A stretch of DNA of 64,000 nucleotides from contig CP119315.1 in NCBI GenBank assembly GCA_029202845.1, positions 2,005,759-2,069,758 of the forward strand. The letters are read 5' to 3'. This document shows, piece after piece, positions 9,373-55,766 of this stretch. Position 1 is the stretch's first letter. Each line of letters starts with the position of its first letter. This stretch comes from Candidatus Sphingomonas colombiensis (lineage in GTDB: Bacteria > Pseudomonadota > Alphaproteobacteria > Sphingomonadales > Sphingomonadaceae). The notes under the pieces are model-generated. The model was given only the letters and a program-made list of their open reading frames with translations, did not search any database and was not told the DNA's origin. The position numbers and the translations under genes were made by a program.

Positions 9373-12299
<2,927 letters not shown>

Positions 12300-48908: not shown

Positions 48909-49433
48909 TCAGGCGAACCGCACTTTGACCGCGCGGCGGCGCATCGCCGCGCCGACCAGGCCGAAGCCCGCGATCATCATCGCCCAGGTGGCCGGCTCGG
49001 GAACGGCGCCCGCGACGGCGGAAACGGAGCCGGAAGTCAGATAGCGATTATAGCCCTTCTCGGTTTCGCTGGTGGTCTGGTTCAGCGAGGTGCCGGTCGA
49101 TGTGAGCGGGCTGTTGAAAAATACGTTGAGTTTCGCGTTCGAGAACGTCGCCGACAGGCCCTGAGCGGCGTTCCAGAACAGCGCGGTCGCGTTGCCGAAC
49201 GTATAGGTAGTCCCGGTGTAGCTGCCATAGGGCCAGCCGCTGTTGGTGGACGACGTGATCGAGAAGCCGATAAGCGTCGCGAGGTCGTCGCTCGTGGTGA
49301 ACGTGCCGGACAGCGTTCCGCCGTCGACGAGCTTCACATTGTCGAGATTGAACACCGCCGCAGCTGAAGCGGGAGCTGCCGTGCCGAGCATGGCAACGGT
49401 CGAAAGGGCTGCGGCAACTACCAACTTACGCAT
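48909..49433 (-). CDS. PEPxxWA-CTERM sorting domain surface protein
   Basis: Signal peptide; C-terminus VPEPATWAMMIAGFGLVGAAMRRR. Confidence 0.92.
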   Translation of the reverse strand: MRKLVVAAALSTVAMLGTAAPASAAAVFNLDNVKLVDGGTLSGTFTTSDDLATLIGFSITSSTNSGWPYGSYTGTTYTFGNATALFWNAAQGLSATFSNAKLNVFFNSPLTSTGTSLNQTTSETEKGYNRYLTSGSVSAVAGAVPEPATWAMMIAGFGLVGAAMRRRAVKVRFA

Positions 49434-49679
49434 TTAAAATCCCCGTGTTTTCCAGCTAGCGCCAGCGACGAATCGCGTCGTCTCGTTCGATCGTGGTCCG
49501 TAGAGGCAAGGTTTGGCGACCAACAGTCCGTTAACCACGAGTTTTCCGCCGCGTCCCAAATCGGAACAGTCATTTCCGCGCTGACTGGAAACGAGGATTC
49601 GCAGCTCTTCCCGCGACGGATGTGGGCGGGCGGCCAACGCGCCGTGCCATGCTGGCTGCAAATCGATTTCTAGAGAAGG

Positions 49680-49696
49680 TGGCAGGGGATCTCGGA
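49680..49696. repeat. Distal att core: copy of the tRNA-Trp 3' end (16/17 identical)
   Basis: tggcaggggatctcgga versus tggcaggggagctcgga at 55690. Confidence 0.85.
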
Positions 49697-49771
49697 GACG
49701 TTGACAGGGGTGGTTTAAGGCGTTGGTTTTGCATAATTTCAGTGATTTTCAAAGCGTTGTATCCGACGATG

Positions 49772-49797
49772 CCTATCCAACAAACCTATCCTACACG
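49772..49797. repeat. Integrase arm-type repeat, left copy
   Basis: CCTATCCAACAAACCTATCCTACACG; 24/26 match to 55615-55640. Confidence 0.75.
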
Positions 49798-49816
49798 TCC
49801 TTGAAAGCTCCCTAAA

Positions 49817-51282
49817 ATGGCAAGCCTGAAGCTCCAACATCGCCAATACTGGGCCACCGTGCGCGCGCCGAAGGGCCTTCAGGATCATTACGACGACAAG
49901 AAGCACCTAATACCGAAACCTTCACACTTCTGACGTGAAGGTGGCGAGGGTTGAGGCCGCCGCATGGGAAGCGATGCTGCGGATGGAGTGGCAGGAGAAG
50001 CAGGGCCGGTCCGTCAGCGACCCCGGCGCACTCCGCCGCATCTACACAGATGCTACGCCGGCAGGCGGCCGAGGGTGCGTTCGTTGTCCATCAGGGCGAT
50101 GAGGACCCGGTTGAGGCTGGAATTGAACATGAGCTGGGGAAGATGGCCGACGCCGATCCTGACCCCGATGGCGAGCTTACCGCTAACGCCGCGATCCGCG
50201 TTGCCGCCCTTCAGGATGCGCTGCGGGAGGTGAGGGGGCAGAAGGTGCCTCAACGGAAGGAGCTTGAGCCAGCCTTTAGCGAGGTGGTGTCGGATTACAT
50301 GACCCAATGGCGCACCCAGCGCGGCCTCAAGGAAACCAACACGGAGCAGCAGAAGGACGCCACGTTCCGCCTGTTCAAGGGCTTCTGGAACGATAAACCT
50401 ATTCGGGGCGTCCGCGACGCCGACGCTTCCCGCTTTCACGATGCGCTTCGCCGTACCGACCGCGACTGGGCGCGCGCCAACGGCGCCAAGGAGATGGCAT
50501 GGGCTAAGGTTCAGGAGCTGTTTGGGGGCAGCGACAACGGATTGGCCGACGCCACCATGAACCGCCATCTGGCGACCCTGAAGGGCCTTTGGGATTGGGC
50601 CGCGAGGCGCGGTCATTGCTCTGGTCACAACCCGTTTGATGGTTTCCACCGGAAGCTGCGAACCGGCGTGAACGTGCTGGGCTATCTGGCATGGGAGAAG
50701 GAGGAGCTTGGCGCGCTGTTCGCCAAGCCGCCGAAGCGGGCGGACATTCGGGAGGTTATCCTAGTCGGGATGTACTCCGGGATGCGCCTTGACGAGATTG
50801 CGTCGCTCCGGTGGGAGCAGCTTCGGGAGGGCGAGGGCGTCCGGTATTTCCAAGTGGAGGACGCGAAGACCCCAGCCGGGAACCGACAGGTGCCCCTCCA
50901 CCCGTCGCTGGCGTGGCTCTGGGACCGCAAGCCGGCCGGTGGCACGGGACAAGTATGGACCACCTTCAACGGGGAGGGGCCGGGGAAGAAAGCGGGCGCC
51001 GACGCCAGCAAGGAGTTTTCTCGCTTCAAGTCTGCTCGCGGCTTCAAGGATCGCCGCAAGGTGTTCCATTCGTTCCGCAAGAACGTCACGCGGATCATGG
51101 AGAGGGCCACCGTGCCGGAGAACGAATGGGCGCAGGTGTTCGGCCATGAGAAGGGGTTCACCTACGGGCGTTACAATCCCGACGGGATCACGTTGGAGCG
51201 CAAGCGGGATATTATCGAGCTGATCGAATATCCCGGCGTGACTTTGCCGGCACCGGCGCGGCCCTCAAGCGATGCAGGATAA
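49817..51282 (+). pseudogene. int: Tyrosine recombinase/integrase with DUF6538-like N-terminus; two +1 frameshifts near 49910 and 50048 as assembled
   Basis: Catalytic residues intact (SGMRLDE, AKT, FHSFRK, FGH...Y). The N-terminus YWATVRAPKGLQ...NLHTSDVKVAR lies in two other frames. Confidence 0.88.
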
Positions 51283-52834
51283 TCCCGTCATTTCCCGCCC
51301 CACAGGCACGATAGCCAAATCCAATGACTCCTTATCCTCCATCCCGATAATCAGCGCCGAAGCGGCTTCTTTGGCGCCTTTAGGCCACTTCCCGAACTCC
51401 GACCGGCGGCGCGAGTTGGAGAACAGCCGCCCAGTCCGTTGGGATCGTGTAACGACGCATCAAGGTGCGGCAGGGGCTATCGCTGGGCTGGTCGATGCGA
51501 TGGTGGCGTGTGAGGATAGGAAACGCGCACGGCGGGCCGACGCCATGGAGCGCGTCCGGGCGGCCATGGCGGCGCTGACGCTCGACCTGTTCGCTTGCGC
51601 CGCCGCCACCCCGTCCCGGTTCATTGCGTATTCCCGCGACCGCAATGCATACCGGGCGAGCCGCTATCGCAACGCGGCTATCACCTTCACCGCCGCCACC
51701 GACGTTGTCGACTTCCTCGAATGCAACGGCTGGGCGGAAGGCGCAGGGGCTATCAGAGCAGGGGCGAGGCCGGACGTGTCATTGGCCGCCGGTCCCGTCT
51801 GCGCGCCACCGCAAAGCTGGTCGAGCATTTCGCGGCGGCAGGGCTGACGATCCACGACCTATCGTTCGATCCGGTTGCAGAGGTGGTCCGGTTGAAGCGC
51901 CGGGTCATAGTCGGGCTGGCGCAGGTCAACACGCTGGCGGAATATGAGGACGATGAGACCACGCGGACGATGCGTTCCGACCTCCAGCGCCTCAATGGAC
52001 TCCTTCGGGACACGCGCGTCGACCTTAAAGACGTCCCGCCGGGGAATGACGGGATCGATGGCGATGCGTTCGATGACGGTGCCGATGATGACGACCGGCC
52101 GGAAGCCGCCGACCACACCGCCATCCGCCTCCATCGGGTATTCAATGACGGCCGGTTTGATCGTGGCGGCCGGTTCTACGGCGGGTGGTGGATGGCGCTG
52201 CCGAGCCATCGTCGTGCCGCCGTACTGCTCGATGGCGAGGTGACGGTCGAACTGGATTATTGCGCCCTCCATCCCCGGCTCTGTTACGCGCTCTCCCGAC
52301 TGGACTGGCCGGCTGATGCCGATCCTTACGCGCTGCCCGCCGCGCCCCACGTAGCCCGTAGCGTCACCAAGGCGGCCTTCACGCGCCTCCTCAACGTCAG
52401 TGCTGGCGTTACCCCCGCGTGCCCCCAAAGGCATCCCGAAGCGGCTCTGGCGGGAAGCGCTGGCGGGGGTGCAGGAGTTGCATAGCGCAATCGCGGGCTG
52501 GTTCGGTGCCGGCCGGGGCATGGAATTGCAGCGGATCGACAGCGCCATCGCATCCGTCGTTCTCGACAGCCTCGCTTATCGGGGCATTCCCTGCTTGCCG
52601 ATCCATGACAGCTTCATCGTCCCAGCTTCGAAGGAGTTGGCGTTGGGCGAGTCGATGTACATGGCCTTCAGGGGGCAGATGGAGCATTTTGGGGGGCGGA
52701 AGGCATGGCCTGCGATTTCCGGCTGGTCATCGCCGGCGGTGGAAGCGAAGGTAATGCGGTCGATGGACCCGGACTGGACACCAGCCCTCGCACCATCGGC
52801 AGGGCTGGAGGAAGTGGGGGCGAGGGAGCCTTAA
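51272..52834 (+). pseudogene. Compact PolA/T7-RNAP-superfamily polymerase-like protein (~520 aa when two frameshifts near 51745 and 52412 are corrected)
   Basis: FDRGGRFY (52159), ELDY (52249), RSVTK (52357) and IHDSF (52601) occur in the canonical order across ORFs 51272, 51595 and 52400. Confidence 0.7.
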
Positions 52835-52914
52835 GGTACACCCCAAATACCATCACTAAGAGCCTTAAGCTTAGCCGCTTGCCGTCCGACCATATCCGTC
52901 GCAGCATCGCGGCT

Positions 52915-53391
52915 ATGCCTACAGATGCGCGGCGACTACGCCTGATCCTGTTTCACGCCCAGAGCGGCTTCTGTGCCGGATGTGGCAACAAGATACGCAG
53001 CAAGCCGGGTCGGTCCAACGACCCGCTCGCGCCAACCTTCGACCACGTGTGCCCGCGCTCCAAGGGCGGCAAAAGCTTAGTGACGAATGGGCTATTGAAG
53101 CATCGCCGCTGTAACGCACAACGTGGCGACCGCCCTCCGACCGGCTGCGACCGTCTATGGCAGATAGTGGTATCTGCGCGGCTGAAGCACGCAAAAAGCC
53201 AAGCGCTGCCCGAGTTCTACGCGGAGCGGGATCGCGTACGTCGGGAGGAGCTGCGAGCGGTTCGGGCTGCGATCATAGAAGCCGGGCGGACGGTCGAGGG
53301 ACGTGACGGCGTCAGCTATCGGCTATGGGGTTTCGTGCGCCTGTCACCGCGATGTGAGGAGGGGCCTGCACTGCTCCCAAGTTCGTCGTAG
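52915..53391 (+). CDS. HNH endonuclease
   Basis: CAGC...TFDHVCPRSKGG...NG..KHRRCNAQRG. Confidence 0.82.
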   Translation: MPTDARRLRLILFHAQSGFCAGCGNKIRSKPGRSNDPLAPTFDHVCPRSKGGKSLVTNGLLKHRRCNAQRGDRPPTGCDRLWQIVVSARLKHAKSQALPEFYAERDRVRREELRAVRAAIIEAGRTVEGRDGVSYRLWGFVRLSPRCEEGPALLPSSS

Positions 53392-53417
53392 CCACGAAGA
53401 TCGCCTTCGATACCGCA

Positions 53418-53738
53418 GTGATCTCCATCGACCGCGAGGGTGTCATCATGATCGACGCGCGGCAGCTTCATGGGTGGCTGGGCGTCCGAGATTACTTCCA
53501 TCAGTGGGTGAAGCGTCGGGCGGAGGAATATGGGCTCGAGGACGGGACGGACTTTTGCACGAGCGTTTGCAAAACCGGCGGATGCTCCCGCACCGACTAC
53601 CTCCTCACCATCGACATGGCGAAGGAACTGTCGACGGTCGAGCGCACCGAACGTGGCCAATTAGTGCTCCCCCTCGGAGAGGGAATCGGCTTCGGACCAG
53701 TTTCGGCCCTAGCTGACCCGATAGCCCACACTCTTTGA
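53418..53738 (+). CDS. AntA/AntB-type phage antirepressor (possibly C-terminally truncated)
   Basis: IDARQLHGWLGV..YFHQWVKRRAEEYGL..DF...DYLLTIDMAKEL..VERTERG. Confidence 0.8.
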   Translation: MISIDREGVIMIDARQLHGWLGVRDYFHQWVKRRAEEYGLEDGTDFCTSVCKTGGCSRTDYLLTIDMAKELSTVERTERGQLVLPLGEGIGFGPVSALADPIAHTL

Positions 53739-53910
53739 TTAGAGCGCACTCTCGGAGAGAGAGCCCAATTAGGCCGCATCTTGTAACTGGGCCGCATCAT
53801 TGGGGGAGAAATCCGCCTCGCTCCATCATTCCTCAAACCCCGAATACGCCACGCCGCCGGATCGCCGTTCCTGGCGTCATCGCGCCGCCGTGCCGCGAGT
53901 AGGAGAACCC

Positions 53911-54156
53911 TTGAACAACCCACGCCGCTCCCGCGCTTCCGCAATTAATGAGAAGTGCAAAGCCTGTATCTGCGATCCGTATGTCGCGGGGACATGGCGC
54001 GAGCAGCTCGCCGCATGCCCCTCCGCCAATTGTCCGCTGTTCGAGGTGCGGCCGGTCCCGCGATCTTGCATCGTGAACGGAGTTTGCGGCCCCGCCGCGA
54101 TCAATGCCGTCAGGATGAAGCTCGATATGATCGACCGCCGCTGCGCCGCCGCCTGA
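53911..54156 (+). CDS. Small Cys-rich (putative Zn-binding) protein
   Basis: TTG start with AGGAG 5 nt upstream; AINEKCKAC...W...CPSANCPLFEVRP. Confidence 0.65.
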   Translation: MNNPRRSRASAINEKCKACICDPYVAGTWREQLAACPSANCPLFEVRPVPRSCIVNGVCGPAAINAVRMKLDMIDRRCAAA

Positions 54157-54821
54157 TGGTCGCGATGCCGGCTTAATCCGGTCATCGCCAGCCACGGAGC
54201 GACGTTGGAGGACAGGGACCTATCGGGGCATCCTCGTCTCCATCGTCGCTCTGTGGTCTGGAAATGCGCTTAAATCCCGCATCGGGCCCCTTCGATGCCC
54301 CGAACGTCACCTCCAGTTCCCGCAGGGTGGAAATGGTATCCCCGCTGCTAGCAGGCGAAGCTCCGCCAGTCGTTCTATCTGGCGGATGGCCGGCGCTATT
54401 GCTGCTGCTACGCTGTCGCCGGTTGGGCGGTATCAAGCGGGCCGTGGCAGACTTAGGGTGGCAATCGCGGCCCGTTATATTTGGTGCAAATTTCCGAAGC
54501 GGGTTATCGTAGGGGCCGCGCGCCGATTTCCCCCCTTATGGGGTGGCGGTGGAGCGATGGCGCGATGGCTCGGAGCCTACTTCCGGGATCACCGAAGGGC
54601 GCCAGTGTCGCCATCAATCCGATTGCCGGAAACAGGTCAACGCGTTCGAGGCGCGCGGTCTGTGCCTGGTACACTGTCGGCCTCGCTGTCAAACGACGCA
54701 GAGGCGGCGCGGCTCGACCGGAGCTTTCCGCCACTCGCGTTTGCTCTCGGCCTCCTTCACCGTGCAGCGAATGCGCCGGCAGCTCCAGTGCAATGCGAAC
54801 CCGCTGCGTGCGTGCGCCCCT

Positions 54822-54915
54822 TGTATCGGAAACGACCGTTTTCGAGCCTGCCGGAAATGCTGTATCGGAAACTAGCTTGACAACCATTTCGATCCACCCT
54901 TAGAAACGATACAGC
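54822..54915. promoter_or_regulatory. Candidate res site / resolvase promoter
   Basis: TGTATCGGAAAC direct repeats at 54822 and 54861; GCTGTATCG (54859) / CGATACAGC (54907) inverted pair; directly upstream of the resolvase. Confidence 0.6.
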
Positions 54916-54941
54916 TTTTCGTTACAACGGGATCACGCCTC

Positions 54942-55520
54942 ATGGCTCGCACCTTCGCCTATTGCCGCGTCAGCACAGCGGACCAGACCACCGACAATCA
55001 GGTGCGGGAGATTGCCGCCGCCGGTTTCGCGGTCGAGCCTAAACGCGTTGTCGAGGAGACGGTCTCGGGTTCGGTGGCTGCTATGGAGCGCAAGGGCTTC
55101 GCCCGCCTGATCGACCGCATGGAGTCCGGCGACGTCCTCATCGTCACCAAGCTAGACCGGCTGGGCCGCAATGCGATGGATGTACGTGCCACCGTCGAAC
55201 GCTTGGCGGCAGATGGGGTCCGGGTGCATTGCCTCGCCCTCGGGGGTGTGGACCTCACCAGCGCTGCCGGAAAGATGACGATGGGCGTTCTGTCCGCCGT
55301 CGCGGAGTTCGAGCGCGACCTATTGATCGAGCGCACCCAGTCGGGGCTATCTCGGGCTAAGGCCGAAGGGAAGGCGTTGGGCCGCCCCTCCGCGCTCTCA
55401 AAGGAGCAGCAGGAGACCGTAAAGGCACGGAGGGCCGATGGGGTGTCGCTGGGGGCGCTGGCGAACGAATATGGCGTGAGTCGCGCCGCGATCCAGCGGG
55501 TGGAGAAGCGGGCGGGTTAG
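54942..55520 (+). CDS. Serine resolvase/invertase (small serine recombinase with C-terminal HTH)
   Basis: YCRVSTADQ catalytic Ser, KLDRLGRN, AEFERDLLIERT, GRP, HTH. Confidence 0.95.
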   Translation: MARTFAYCRVSTADQTTDNQVREIAAAGFAVEPKRVVEETVSGSVAAMERKGFARLIDRMESGDVLIVTKLDRLGRNAMDVRATVERLAADGVRVHCLALGGVDLTSAAGKMTMGVLSAVAEFERDLLIERTQSGLSRAKAEGKALGRPSALSKEQQETVKARRADGVSLGALANEYGVSRAAIQRVEKRAG

Positions 55521-55614
55521 ATTACTCTCGGGCGGTCGACGCCCTGCTTTTTTTGTTCAGCCCTAGAGCGGCGGCGGACATCTGGTGGGGTCGCGGCAGA
55601 CGGAGGAGCCCGAA

Positions 55615-55640
55615 CCTATCCAGCAAACCTATCCAACACG
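55615..55640. repeat. Integrase arm-type repeat, right copy
   Basis: CCTATCCAGCAAACCTATCCAACACG. Confidence 0.75.
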
Positions 55641-55689
55641 GGGCGGTTTTTAGGCTCTATCATGTTGAGATTGTTCAATTTTCTGGAAG

Positions 55690-55766
55690 TGGCAGGGGAG
55701 CTCGGATTCGAACCGAGGGCCTTCGGTTTTGGAGACCGACGCTCTAACCAGCTGAGCTACACCCCT
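55690..55766 (-). tRNA. trnW: tRNA-Trp (CCA)
   Basis: Reverse complement AGGGGTGTAGCTCAGCTGGTTAGAGCGTCGGTCTCCAAAACCGAAGGCCCTCGGTTCGAATCCGAGCTCCCCTGCCA folds as a 77-nt cloverleaf with a CCA anticodon and encoded CCA end. Confidence 0.97.

What the first reader, a model, noticed from the sequence alone, without database searches (positions are those of the whole stretch)
51272..52834. Hidden compact PolA / T7-RNA-polymerase-superfamily enzyme inside the tRNA-Trp element
Seen: three consecutive unannotated ORFs (51272, 51595, 52400) join into one ~520-aa frame after adding one base near 51745 and removing one from the C-run near 52412. The joined protein has, in order, FDRGGRFY (52159), VELDYCALHP (52249), RSVTK (52357) and PIHDSF (52601). 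Known: T7 RNAP has the DxxGR motif (DWRGRVY), catalytic motif A Asp, motif B RSVTKRSVMTLAYG and motif C IHDSF; family A DNA polymerases share motifs A, B and C. The motif B-to-C distance here is only about 80 aa, against roughly 180 aa in T7 RNAP, so the promoter-specificity loop appears absent, and no exonuclease domain is visible. Inference: a minimal polymerase, perhaps a primase-polymerase akin to the TV-Pol group, acting as the replicase of a small integrative element. No helicase partner is encoded, which would be unusual.
Basis: partly seen in the sequence, partly recalled or inferred. Interest (0 to 1): 0.88.

Follow-up and report, generated by a model that had tools for sequence, protein, structure and literature searches.

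The report
Broken compact PolA-like polymerase gene
The three small reading frames are the wreck of one gene for a stripped-down DNA-polymerase-I-like enzyme, the signature gene of small elements that insert next to tRNA genes; the enzyme family is large and biochemically untested, its phage branch was described in 2024, and this copy is inactivated.

Summary
ORFs 51272, 51595 and 52400 are colinear pieces of one gene, split by a -1 shift at a G-run (51746-51749) and a +1 shift at a C-run (52412-52416). The read-through protein matches intact 430-510-aa hypothetical proteins end to end (best 57% identity, E 1e-167).

An AlphaFold model of the closest intact homologue (pLDDT 93.9) hits only family-A DNA polymerases, then mitochondrial RNA polymerases, in the PDB. 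The two palm Asp, the RxxxK Lys and two hairpin Arg are invariant in 112 homologues.

The family is a full-length homologue of phage "divPolA2" (Yutin 2024; hhalign 99.6%). It also fits the 2008 TV-Pol description: beta-hairpin Arg, two Asp, fingers Asp plus RxxxK, and resolvase, integrase or Bro-N neighbours. Pfam, NCBIfam and PADLOC have no model for it.

It is large (12,082 clusters at 50% identity) and sits beside integrases, resolvases and tRNA genes. Here it lies in a 6.0-kb tRNA-Trp element (49679-55706).

This copy is most likely a true pseudogene, and 4 of 9 copies in the order are damaged. A replicase or primase role is inferred, not shown; lacking a helicase is normal for this group.

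Verdict: a new, dead member of a known but uncharacterised kind.

The parts
49679..49696 (.). attL: direct repeat of the 3' end of tRNA-Trp (GTGGCAGGGGATCTCGGA); left boundary of the element
   Evidence: 17 of 18 nt identical to 55689-55706 (family D8).
49772..49797 (+). Paired CCTATCCNAC motif, left copy. Candidate recombinase arm site or iteron; function not tested.
   Evidence: 26-nt repeat, 92% identical to 55615-55640 (family D2). The only exact matches to the motif in the 64-kb window are at the two element ends.
49951..51282 (+). Tyrosine integrase (start codon uncertain); its stop overlaps the polymerase start codon
   Evidence: Pfam Phage_integrase, E 1.3e-6. An integrase cluster neighbours the polymerase gene in 37 of 79 related loci.
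51272..51745 (+). Polymerase gene, piece 1 (frame 2): N-terminal helical hairpin and start of the winged-helix-like region
   Evidence: Profile positions 10-126, E 7e-30; alignment A1.
51746..51749 (+). Frameshift 1: G-run where the reading frame drops by one (one base fewer than intact homologues imply)
   Evidence: Homologues read AEG-x-GYQ across this point without a gap.
51745..52416 (+). Polymerase gene, piece 2 (frame 1): rest of the N-domain, acidic loop, beta-hairpin (LHRVFN 52129, FDRGGRFY 52156), motif A (VELDY 52246, Asp codon 52255), fingers DPY 52321, motif B (RSVTK 52357)
   Evidence: Profile positions 125-347, E 2.3e-71; motif coordinates; invariant residues.
52412..52416 (+). 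Frameshift 2: C-run carrying one base more than intact homologues imply
   Evidence: Homologues read V-x-P-[KR]-A-P-K-G across this point without a gap.
52418..52834 (+). Polymerase gene, piece 3 (frame 2): fingers helices and motif C (PIHDSF 52598, Asp codon 52607), C-terminal tail
   Evidence: Profile positions 356-463, E 1.5e-37; phrog_4756 positions 356-425.
52915..53391 (+). HNH endonuclease; apparently an insertion relative to the closest intact element
   Evidence: Pfam HNH, E 3.7e-5, and several PHROG HNH families. The closest intact element (L102) has no HNH, and its AntA-like remnant follows the polymerase gene directly.
53418..53738 (+). AntA/Bro-N-type antirepressor-like DNA-binding protein (N-terminal domain only)
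   Evidence: Pfam AntA, E 1e-19; phrog_5817 anti-repressor. A Bro-N gene holds the same position after the polymerase gene next to P0024.
53920..54156 (+). Small Cys-rich ORF conserved in the closest related elements; function unknown
   Evidence: tblastx gives 66% identity over 70 aa to L102:9033-9242, plus hits in L002, L103 and L003. jackhmmer finds it in only those 4 loci. No Pfam or NCBIfam hit.
54942..55520 (+). Serine recombinase (resolvase) with HTH_7
   Evidence: Pfam Resolvase, E 4.9e-37. Resolvase is within two genes of the polymerase gene in 22 of 79 loci. 77-78% identical to the resolvases in L004 and L044.
55615..55640 (+). Paired CCTATCCNAC motif, right copy
55689..55766 (-). 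tRNA-Trp (CCA), 55690-55766; its 3' end (55689-55706) is attR, the right boundary of the 6.0-kb element
   Evidence: ARAGORN; Rfam tRNA, 70 bits; repeat D8.

Best explanation
Window 51272-52834 is a single gene, inactivated by two frameshifts. It encoded a compact protein of about 470-520 aa in the family-A DNA polymerase / T7-like RNA polymerase superfamily, with no exonuclease domain.

The intact protein, as modelled from the closest homologue, has these parts in order:
- An N-terminal helical hairpin plus an alpha/beta region. Weak hits suggest this region looks like a winged helix.
- A beta-hairpin (RVF...GGRFY) carrying invariant arginines.
- A palm with the motif A Asp (ELDY) and the motif C Asp (HDSF).
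- A short fingers insert with DPY and RxxxK.

The family is a full-length homologue of phage 'divPolA2'. It also matches the feature list and gene context of the resolvase/integrase-linked TV-Pols.

Together with a tyrosine integrase and/or a serine resolvase, this gene is the recurring core of small elements that insert at tRNA genes, mainly in Alphaproteobacteria. Here the element is 6.0 kb, inserted at tRNA-Trp (49679-55706).

The most likely function (inferred, roughly 45%) is to start or carry out replication of the excised circle. In this model the N-terminal domain binds element DNA and the palm synthesises a primer or short DNA. The host replisome supplies the helicase, and the resolvase resolves multimers.

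In this genome the gene is dead, so the element can at most excise and reintegrate.

What is shown: one gene, the fold, the conserved catalytic residues, the gene context and the frameshifts.
What is inferred: that the frameshifts are real mutations; priming and replication; DNA versus RNA product.
For: One gene:
- Three colinear profile hits in the own genome.
- The read-through protein has E 1e-167 and 90% coverage against the intact P0001, and 184 homologues in all.
- The alignment is gap-free across both junctions.

Fold:
- AlphaFold model of P0001 built on 112 sequences: pLDDT 93.9, pTM 0.92.
- All the top 32 Foldseek PDB hits are family-A DNAPs (Bst 1xwl E 1.7e-4, KlenTaq, apicoplast Pol, Pol gamma, Pol theta) or mitochondrial RNAPs; in the top 16 (all family-A DNAPs) the probability is 0.91-1.00.

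Catalytic residues:
- R235, R247, R261, E273, D275, K313, H391 and D392 are each present in 112 of 112 sequences.
- D275 lies in strand 269-276, and D392 lies in the hairpin 388-397.

Phage relatives:
- BFVD hits at E 1e-23 with TM up to 0.71 over the full length.
- hhalign against Barba18A gp034 gives 99.6% probability, E 1.3e-23, over 342 columns.
- 203 phage records match by tblastn.
- Barbavirus divPolA2 is described in PMC11348598.

Context:
- 242 species genomes carry a relative.
- Within two genes of the polymerase gene, an integrase occurs in 37 of 79 loci and a resolvase in 22 of 79. No helicase or SSB cluster occurs.
- A tRNA or tmRNA lies in 41 of 60 loci, mostly with its 3' end pointing at the element.
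- The P0001 contig reads tRNA-Leu, integrase, polymerase, resolvase. The P0024 contig reads polymerase, Bro-N, resolvase.
- This matches the TV-Pol neighbourhoods described in PMC2579912.

Pseudogene:
- The genome is a single 3.81-Mb contig, 99.3% complete.
- 1,484 intact ORFs of at least 300 aa cover 58% of it, so assembly indels are rare.
- 4 of the 9 copies found in 151 genomes of the order are broken or partial.
Against: - No sequence-level link to classical PolA or T7 RNAP was found. Pfam, NCBIfam and the PDB sequence searches are empty. hhalign against 14 alphaproteobacterial PolA sequences found nothing.
- Foldseek TM-scores to PDB polymerases are only about 0.3, so the match is a core-fold match.
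- The family profile does not detect anything in Microcystis phage Ma-LMM01, a named TV-Pol host.
- No member of this family has been assayed, so polymerase activity, priming and substrate are unproven.
- Yutin et al. consider a repair DNAP or an RNAP equally possible for divPolA2.
- Both frameshifts lie in homopolymer runs, which is also where sequencing errors fall.
Confidence: 0.6

Rival explanations
1. The same protein family is a single-subunit RNA polymerase. It would transcribe element or phage genes from a promoter recognised by the N-terminal domain, and would not be a DNA replicase.
For: - The GR hairpin, RxxxK and HDSF motifs are closer in wording to T7 RNAP than to Pol I.
- Mitochondrial RNAPs are among the Foldseek hits.
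- Yutin et al. raise this possibility for divPolA2.
- One UniRef entry for a homologue is named 'DNA-directed RNA polym...'.
- One of 20 members gives a weak Pfam RNA_pol hit, E 0.071.
Against: - The best PDB hits are DNA polymerases, ahead of the RNAPs.
- The position five residues after the motif A Asp is a bulky His in 95 of 112 sequences, and Trp in barbavirus. T7 RNAP has Gly there. From general knowledge of the family-A steric gate, this is a weak argument.
- The elements are tiny and their genes can be read by the host RNAP.
- The resolvase and integrase context fits a replicon.
Confidence: 0.2
2. The polymerase is not for element replication. It would instead be a repair or translesion polymerase, or a conflict (defence or counter-defence) polymerase, carried as cargo.
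For: - In phages the gene sits in variable neighbourhoods, away from the replication module, alongside a regular PolB.
- No origin, helicase or SSB partner is conserved.
Against: - In bacterial chromosomes the gene is tightly linked to integrases, resolvases and tRNA sites, and is often the only sizeable gene besides the recombinase. That is the position of a core gene, not cargo.
- There is no PADLOC match.
Confidence: 0.15
3. The two frameshifts are assembly errors at homopolymers and the gene is intact in the organism.
For: - Both shifts lie in G/C runs of 4-5 bases.
- The two shifts compensate each other, so ORF1 and ORF3 share a frame.
- The assembly is a single contig, which may suggest long reads.
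Against: - 58% of the genome lies in intact ORFs of at least 300 aa, and 43 ORFs reach 1000 aa or more. Completeness is 99.3%. Two errors within 670 nt would therefore be very unlikely by chance.
- Damaged copies are common in relatives.
Confidence: 0.18
4. Programmed -1 and +1 ribosomal frameshifting yields the full-length protein from the sequence as it stands.
For: Both sites are homopolymeric, and the C-run could allow tRNA-Pro slippage.
Against: - There is no canonical slippery heptamer at site 1.
- Two independent events would both be needed.
- All close homologues are encoded in a single frame.
Confidence: 0.01

Closest known systems
divPolA2, a divergent family-A polymerase of barbaviruses and other Caudoviricetes (Yutin et al., Virol J 2024, PMC11348598)
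   Same: - Full-length homology: hhalign 99.6%, E 1.3e-23; Foldseek E 1e-20 to 1e-23, TM up to 0.71.
- The same invariant R, D, D-x-Y, RxxxK and HD residues.
- No exonuclease domain.
- An N-terminal globular domain in place of a classical thumb.
   Different: - Here the gene is in a bacterial chromosome, inside a 6-kb tRNA-integrating element with an integrase and a resolvase. It is not in an 80-130-kb phage that also has a regular PolB.
- The bacterial branch is far larger: the whole family holds 12,082 clusters at 50% identity.
- This copy is frameshifted.
TV-Pol family, the subset with an N-terminal domain (TV-PolN) next to resolvase, integrase or transposase (Iyer, Abhiman, Aravind 2008, PMC2579912)
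   Same: - A minimal PolA-like core.
- A beta-hairpin with an invariant Arg, two palm Asp, and a fingers Asp plus RxxxK.
- No nuclease domain.
- Alphaproteobacterial mobile elements with gamma-delta resolvase, lambda-type integrase and Bro-N-type genes.
   Different: - Identity with their sequences could not be shown. Their list is not held, and the family profile finds nothing in Ma-LMM01.
- Their N-terminal domain is described as all-helical, whereas this model is alpha/beta.
- The two-helix coiled-coil thumb is not evident.
CcPol-MP primase-polymerase of SCCmec (Bebel et al., eLife 2020, PMC7581432; Front Mol Biosci 2023, PMC10061031)
   Same: - An exonuclease-poor A-family polymerase encoded by a site-specifically integrating element next to recombinases.
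- It is the only biochemical precedent for a PolA-type enzyme that primes de novo.
   Different: - CcPol needs an OB-fold partner (MP) and is linked to a helicase (Cch2). Neither is conserved here.
[quoted passage not shown]
- It is found in Bacillota, not Alphaproteobacteria.
T7 RNA polymerase and bacterial DNA polymerase I (Klenow, Bst, KlenTaq)
   Same: - Core palm/fingers fold.
- Equivalents of motifs A, B and C and of the GR hairpin.
   Different: - About half the size.
- Motif B to motif C is 79 aa here, against 181 aa in T7.
- No exonuclease domain, no promoter-specificity loop and no T7-type N-terminal domain.
- No detectable profile-level sequence similarity.

Membership tests
Family-A DNA polymerase / T7-like RNAP superfamily (fold level) | Palm plus fingers fold matching solved members | tested here: met
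   In the Foldseek PDB search, all the top 32 hits are family-A DNAPs or single-subunit RNAPs. E goes down to 1.7e-4; in the top 16 hits (all family-A DNAPs) the probability is 0.91-1.00. The model has pLDDT 93.9.
Family-A DNA polymerase / T7-like RNAP superfamily (fold level) | Two metal-binding Asp (motifs A and C) conserved and placed on palm strands | tested here: met
   D275 and D392 are each present in 112 of 112 sequences. They lie in strand 269-276 and hairpin 388-397. Both are present in the window copy.
Family-A DNA polymerase / T7-like RNAP superfamily (fold level) | Motif B RxxxK on a fingers helix | tested here: met
   R309 in 109 of 112 and K313 in 112 of 112 sequences, on helix 309-321.
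Family-A DNA polymerase / T7-like RNAP superfamily (fold level) | Match to the curated sequence models (Pfam DNA_pol_A PF00476 or RNA_pol PF00940) | tested here: not met
   No hit for the window pieces or for 20 family members, apart from one RNA_pol hit at E 0.071. hhalign against PolA found nothing.
Family-A DNA polymerase / T7-like RNAP superfamily (fold level) | Template-dependent nucleotidyl transfer | not testable with these tools
   Needs biochemistry on an intact homologue.
divPolA2 (Yutin et al. 2024) | Homology to the barbavirus prototype over the catalytic and N-terminal parts | tested here: met
   hhalign of A2 against Barba18A gp034: 99.6%, E 1.3e-23, profile columns 68-444. BFVD hit to Barba31A at E 1.4e-20. 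tblastn hits 113 Rheinheimera phage records.
divPolA2 (Yutin et al. 2024) | Encoded by a tailed phage in addition to a regular replicative DNAP | tested here: not met
   Here the gene is in a 6-kb chromosomal integrative element with no phage structural genes.
TV-Pol (Iyer et al. 2008) | Beta-hairpin with an absolutely conserved Arg, two palm Asp, and a fingers Asp plus RxxxK | tested here: met
   R235 and R247 in hairpin 234-249; D275 and D392; D297 in 106 of 112; R309/K313. Feature list taken.
TV-Pol (Iyer et al. 2008) | Thumb formed by two antiparallel coiled-coil helices just before the hairpin | tested here: inconclusive
   The model has one long helix (179-196) before the hairpin, and a helical hairpin (16-32 and 41-64) at the far N-terminus. 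Yutin et al. see no homologous thumb in divPolA2.
TV-Pol (Iyer et al. 2008) | Neighbourhood with gamma-delta resolvase, lambda-type integrase or transposase (the N-domain subset) | tested here: met
   Integrase in 37 of 79 and resolvase in 22 of 79 loci. Integrase-polymerase-resolvase and polymerase-BroN-resolvase arrangements.
TV-Pol (Iyer et al. 2008) | Profile-level link to a named member | tested here: not met
   The A2 profile finds nothing in Microcystis phage Ma-LMM01 at E <= 10. No Brucella melitensis homologue appeared among the 120 best hits of a Brucellaceae-type query. The authors' sequence list is not held.
CcPol-MP type primase (SCCmec) | Adjacent small OB-fold SSB partner and a Cch/D5-type helicase | tested here: not met
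   No conserved neighbour cluster other than integrase and resolvase in 79 loci. No such gene in the window element.
T7-like single-subunit RNA polymerase | N-terminal promoter-binding domain and specificity loop between motifs B and C | tested here: not met
   79 aa between the motif B Lys and the motif C Asp, against 181 aa in T7. The protein is 463 aa against 883 aa. There is no Pfam RNA_pol match above threshold.

The most novel reading that the evidence does not exclude
The family may be a self-sufficient, single-protein replication initiator: an origin-binding N-terminal domain fused to a minimal PolA core that primes de novo with no SSB partner and no element-encoded helicase. That would let roughly 6-kb tRNA-integrating elements, and accessory modules in phages such as ICP1 and barbaviruses, replicate on their own.

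Either way, a 12,000-cluster family with no Pfam model would become a new biochemical class of PolA enzyme.
Probability: 0.2. Interest if true: 0.75.

Novelty: new member of a known kind. Interest (0 to 1): 0.4.

Why it matters
This copy matters little by itself, because it is a dead gene in a decaying 6-kb island.

The family behind it matters more:
- It is very large, with 12,082 clusters at 50% identity.
- It is invisible to Pfam, NCBIfam and PADLOC.
- It has a confidently predicted minimal family-A polymerase fold with invariant catalytic residues.
- It is the core gene of small tRNA-targeting integrative elements, and also occurs in well-studied phages (ICP1, barbaviruses).
- It has never been assayed.

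A biochemical test on an intact member would settle three things. First, whether a PolA core of about 230 aa plus a DNA-binding domain can prime. Second, whether it makes DNA or RNA. Third, how helicase-less mini-elements replicate. These questions have been open since the TV-Pol proposal of 2008, and they bear on the origin of T7-like RNA polymerases.

Tried and rejected
- **Raw-read check of the two indels.** I used ORF-integrity statistics of the whole genome instead.
- **Sequence searches of the PDB.** The read-through protein found nothing. The 112-sequence profile gave only a weak MarR-type winged-helix hit on the N-domain, E 0.27.
- **hhalign of the family against 14 alphaproteobacterial PolA sequences.** No meaningful hit. 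The template set had low diversity, so this is weak negative evidence.
- **Link to a named TV-Pol.** The profile search of the whole Microcystis phage Ma-LMM01 record was empty. A search seeded with a Brucellaceae-type homologue (Mycoplana, L059) listed no Brucella melitensis protein among its best 120 hits. The supplementary list of Iyer et al. is not held.
- **Defence-system reading.** No PADLOC hit.
- **Empty-site search.** The left flank was searched in 20 relatives. Only a repeated PEP-CTERM-type segment matched and no syntenic site was found.
- **Small Cys-rich ORF as a general partner, analogous to MP.** It occurs in only 4 related loci, so it was rejected as a family-wide partner.
- **Phage-satellite reading.** IMG/VR relatives lie mostly in 20-90-kb contigs, and only a few in contigs of 4-10 kb. 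Marine VEIMEs share the pairing of tyrosine integrase with serine recombinase, but no direct link was shown.
- **Rfam and promoter/terminator scans of the element.** Only the tRNA and a terminator after the resolvase.
- **Programmed frameshifting.** Rejected, because all close homologues are encoded in a single frame.
Full report
**1. Observation**

The region 51272-52834 holds three overlapping + strand ORFs:
- 51272-51847, frame 2
- 51595-52485, frame 1
- 52400-52834, frame 2

A profile built from intact relatives finds three colinear pieces in the window's own genome. They cover profile positions 10-126, 125-347 and 356-463, with E 7e-30, 2e-71 and 1.5e-37. No other copy exists in the 3.81-Mb chromosome. 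PHROG family 4756 (function unknown) also hits ORF2 and ORF3 colinearly.

I read the gene through with an X at each junction, giving 520 aa. This protein finds 184 intact proteins of about 430-510 aa. The best, P0001, is 57% identical over 90% of the query at E 1e-167. The alignment crosses both junctions without gaps.

The first shift is at the G-run 51746-51749, where one base is missing relative to what homologues imply. The second is at the C-run 52412-52416, where one base is extra.

**2. What the protein is**

Pfam, NCBIfam, PADLOC and PDB sequence searches find nothing.

An AlphaFold2 model of P0001, built on a 112-sequence alignment, is very confident: pLDDT 93.9, pTM 0.92. In the Foldseek PDB search all the top 32 hits are polymerases of this superfamily. 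They include family-A DNA polymerases (Bst fragment 1xwl at E 1.7e-4, KlenTaq, apicoplast Pol, Pol gamma, Pol theta) and mitochondrial RNA polymerases. In the top 16 hits, all family-A DNA polymerases, the probability is 0.91-1.00. TM-scores are about 0.3, so this is a match of the core fold.

Residues invariant in 112 of 112 homologues are R235, R247, R261, E273, D275, K313, H391 and D392. D297, Y299, R309, S393 and F394 are nearly invariant.

On the model these residues fall as follows:
- The RVF...GGRFY arginines lie on a beta-hairpin (234-249).
- D275 ends a palm strand (269-276), which is motif A.
- R309xxxK313 sits on a fingers helix, which is motif B.
- H391-D392 sits in a beta-hairpin (388-397), which is motif C.

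None of them is met.

The protein has no room for an exonuclease domain or for a T7-type specificity loop. The motif B Lys and the motif C Asp are 79 aa apart, against 181 aa in T7.

The literal identity of RSVTK to T7 is coincidental, since only R and K are conserved. HDSF and the GR hairpin are conserved across the family.

The N-terminal 220 residues form a helical hairpin plus an alpha/beta region. Only weak winged-helix hints exist for it: MarR at E 0.27 and PerR and Pex at Foldseek E about 0.3.

**3. Relatives**

The closest structural matches are phage proteins:
- Aeromonas phages 2L372X and 4L372D, at E 1e-22 to 1e-23 and TM up to 0.71 over the full length.
- Rheinheimera phage Barba31A, at E 1.4e-20.

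By tblastn, the catalytic half of P0001 hits 203 phage records, all annotated as hypothetical: 113 Rheinheimera barbaviruses, 72 Vibrio phages (including ICP1) and 13 Aeromonas phages. Profile comparison with Barba18A gp034 gives 99.6% probability, E 1.3e-23, over 342 columns that include part of the N-domain.

These barbavirus proteins are the 'divPolA2' of Yutin et al. 2024. That paper describes an active palm, no recognisable thumb, a novel N-terminal globular domain and no exonuclease. It proposes a repair DNAP or an RNAP as the function.

The older TV-Pol paper (Iyer et al. 2008) lists the same core features: a hairpin Arg, two palm Asp, and a fingers Asp plus RxxxK. It describes an alphaproteobacterial subset with an extra N-terminal domain, linked to gamma-delta resolvase, lambda-type integrase or transposase. 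One example is a Brucella element with TV-Pol, a resolvase and a Bro-N/KilA-C gene.

I could not prove identity with their sequences. Their list is not held. The family profile finds nothing in Ma-LMM01. No Brucella melitensis protein appeared in a targeted search.

The family is large, with 12,082 cluster representatives at E <= 1e-3 and 6,083 at E <= 1e-30.

**4. Context**

- A pattern scan of one genome per species found 242 loci, mostly in Alphaproteobacteria.
- Within two genes of the polymerase gene, a tyrosine-integrase cluster occurs in 37 of 79 loci and a serine-resolvase cluster in 22 of 79. Nearly everything else is a singleton, and there is no helicase or SSB cluster.
- A tRNA or tmRNA lies in 41 of 60 loci scanned, of many different specificities. 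Most have the 3' end pointing towards the polymerase gene.
- The closest intact copy sits in tRNA-Leu, integrase, polymerase, resolvase order. Another sits in polymerase, Bro-N, small ORF, resolvase order.
- In the window's order the gene is sporadic, present in 9 of 151 genomes and 5 of 54 genera. Four of those nine copies are split, stopped or partial.

**5. The element here**

An 18-nt direct repeat of the tRNA-Trp 3' end delimits a 6.0-kb island. The repeat lies at 49679-49696 and 55689-55706, with 17 of 18 nt identical. The first-stage note on the whole element gives the same bounds.

Gene order in the island:
- tyrosine integrase, whose stop overlaps the polymerase start
- the broken polymerase gene
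- HNH endonuclease
- AntA-type protein
- a small conserved Cys-rich ORF
- a non-coding stretch
- serine resolvase with a terminator
- tRNA-Trp

No helicase is present. That is typical of this group and not unusual.

**6. Pseudogene or sequencing error**

Reads could not be consulted. The assembly is a single contig, 99.3% complete. It has 1,484 ORFs of at least 300 aa with coding-type GC3, covering 58% of the genome, and 43 ORFs of at least 1000 aa. Assembly indels are therefore rare, and two within 670 nt of one accessory gene are best read as real mutations. I put this at about 0.8. Decayed copies in relatives agree with it.

**7. Mechanism**

What is shown: the fold, the invariant catalytic set, the fusion to an N-terminal domain, and tight linkage to site-specific recombinases and tRNA attachment sites.

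What is inferred: after excision, the protein binds the circular element and primes or starts its replication. The host replisome supplies the helicase, and the resolvase resolves multimers.

The one biochemical precedent is CcPol-MP of SCCmec, a PolA-type enzyme that primes DNA de novo. However, it needs an OB-fold partner and has a linked helicase, and both are absent here.

The rivals are an RNA polymerase, a repair or conflict polymerase, an assembly error, and programmed frameshifting. They are weighed in the Rival explanations section.

**8. Verdict**

However, the gene is dead in this genome, the phage branch of the family was published in 2024, and the element type was outlined in 2008.

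It is a new member of a known kind. The family as a whole remains an attractive and entirely uncharacterised biochemical target.

Noticed in passing
window 49772-49797 and 55615-55640: A paired motif, CCTATCCNAC-AAA-CCTATCCNAC, lies just inside each end of the element. These are the only exact matches to the motif in the 64-kb window. It may be a recombinase arm site or an iteron.
   Followed up: partly
window 53920-54156 (+): A small Cys-rich ORF (CxxC...C...C) is conserved at 54-66% identity in the four closest related loci (L102, L002, L103, L003). It was not called in the JGI annotation of L102. No family hit. It could be a zinc-binding accessory protein.
   Followed up: partly
window ~54465-54500; L102 ~9380-9410; L005 ~9995-10025; L006 ~9600-9630: A conserved non-coding block, TTTGnCGCAGATTTCCGAAGCGG, lies between the small ORF and the resolvase. 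It is present in several related elements, and in the opposite orientation in L002 and L103. It looks like a sigma-70 -35 hexamer plus spacer with a palindromic core. It could be a promoter/operator or an origin.
   Followed up: partly
window 52915-53391 against L102 8392-8545: The HNH gene is absent from the closest intact element, where the AntA-like remnant follows the polymerase gene directly. The HNH gene here therefore looks like a later insertion. Its best NCBIfam hits are the HNH domains of Cas9d and IscB.
   Followed up: partly
phage loci L099, L100, L101: Vibrio phage ICP1, Rheinheimera barbaviruses and Aeromonas phages carry homologues of 420-495 aa, annotated as hypothetical. They sit among small unknown genes, not in replication modules.
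   Followed up: partly
one search hit list (P0170, P0180 and others): Many Rhizobium and Mesorhizobium relatives are only about 350 aa and match just the catalytic half. This suggests forms that lack the N-terminal domain or encode it separately, as Iyer et al. described for TV-PolN. One Agrobacterium albertimagni homologue carries a UniRef name starting 'DNA-directed RNA polym'.
   Followed up: no
window 48909-49433 (-): The gene left of the element ends in a PEP-CTERM-like sorting signal. That roughly 100-nt segment has many paralogous matches in this genome and in same-genus genomes.
   Followed up: no
window 54811-54942: The region upstream of the resolvase is conserved at the DNA level with L102, L004 and L044, whose resolvases in L004 and L044 are 77-78% identical. 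The polymerase genes of L004 and L044 are only 33-41% identical. This points to module shuffling and a possible res site.
   Followed up: no
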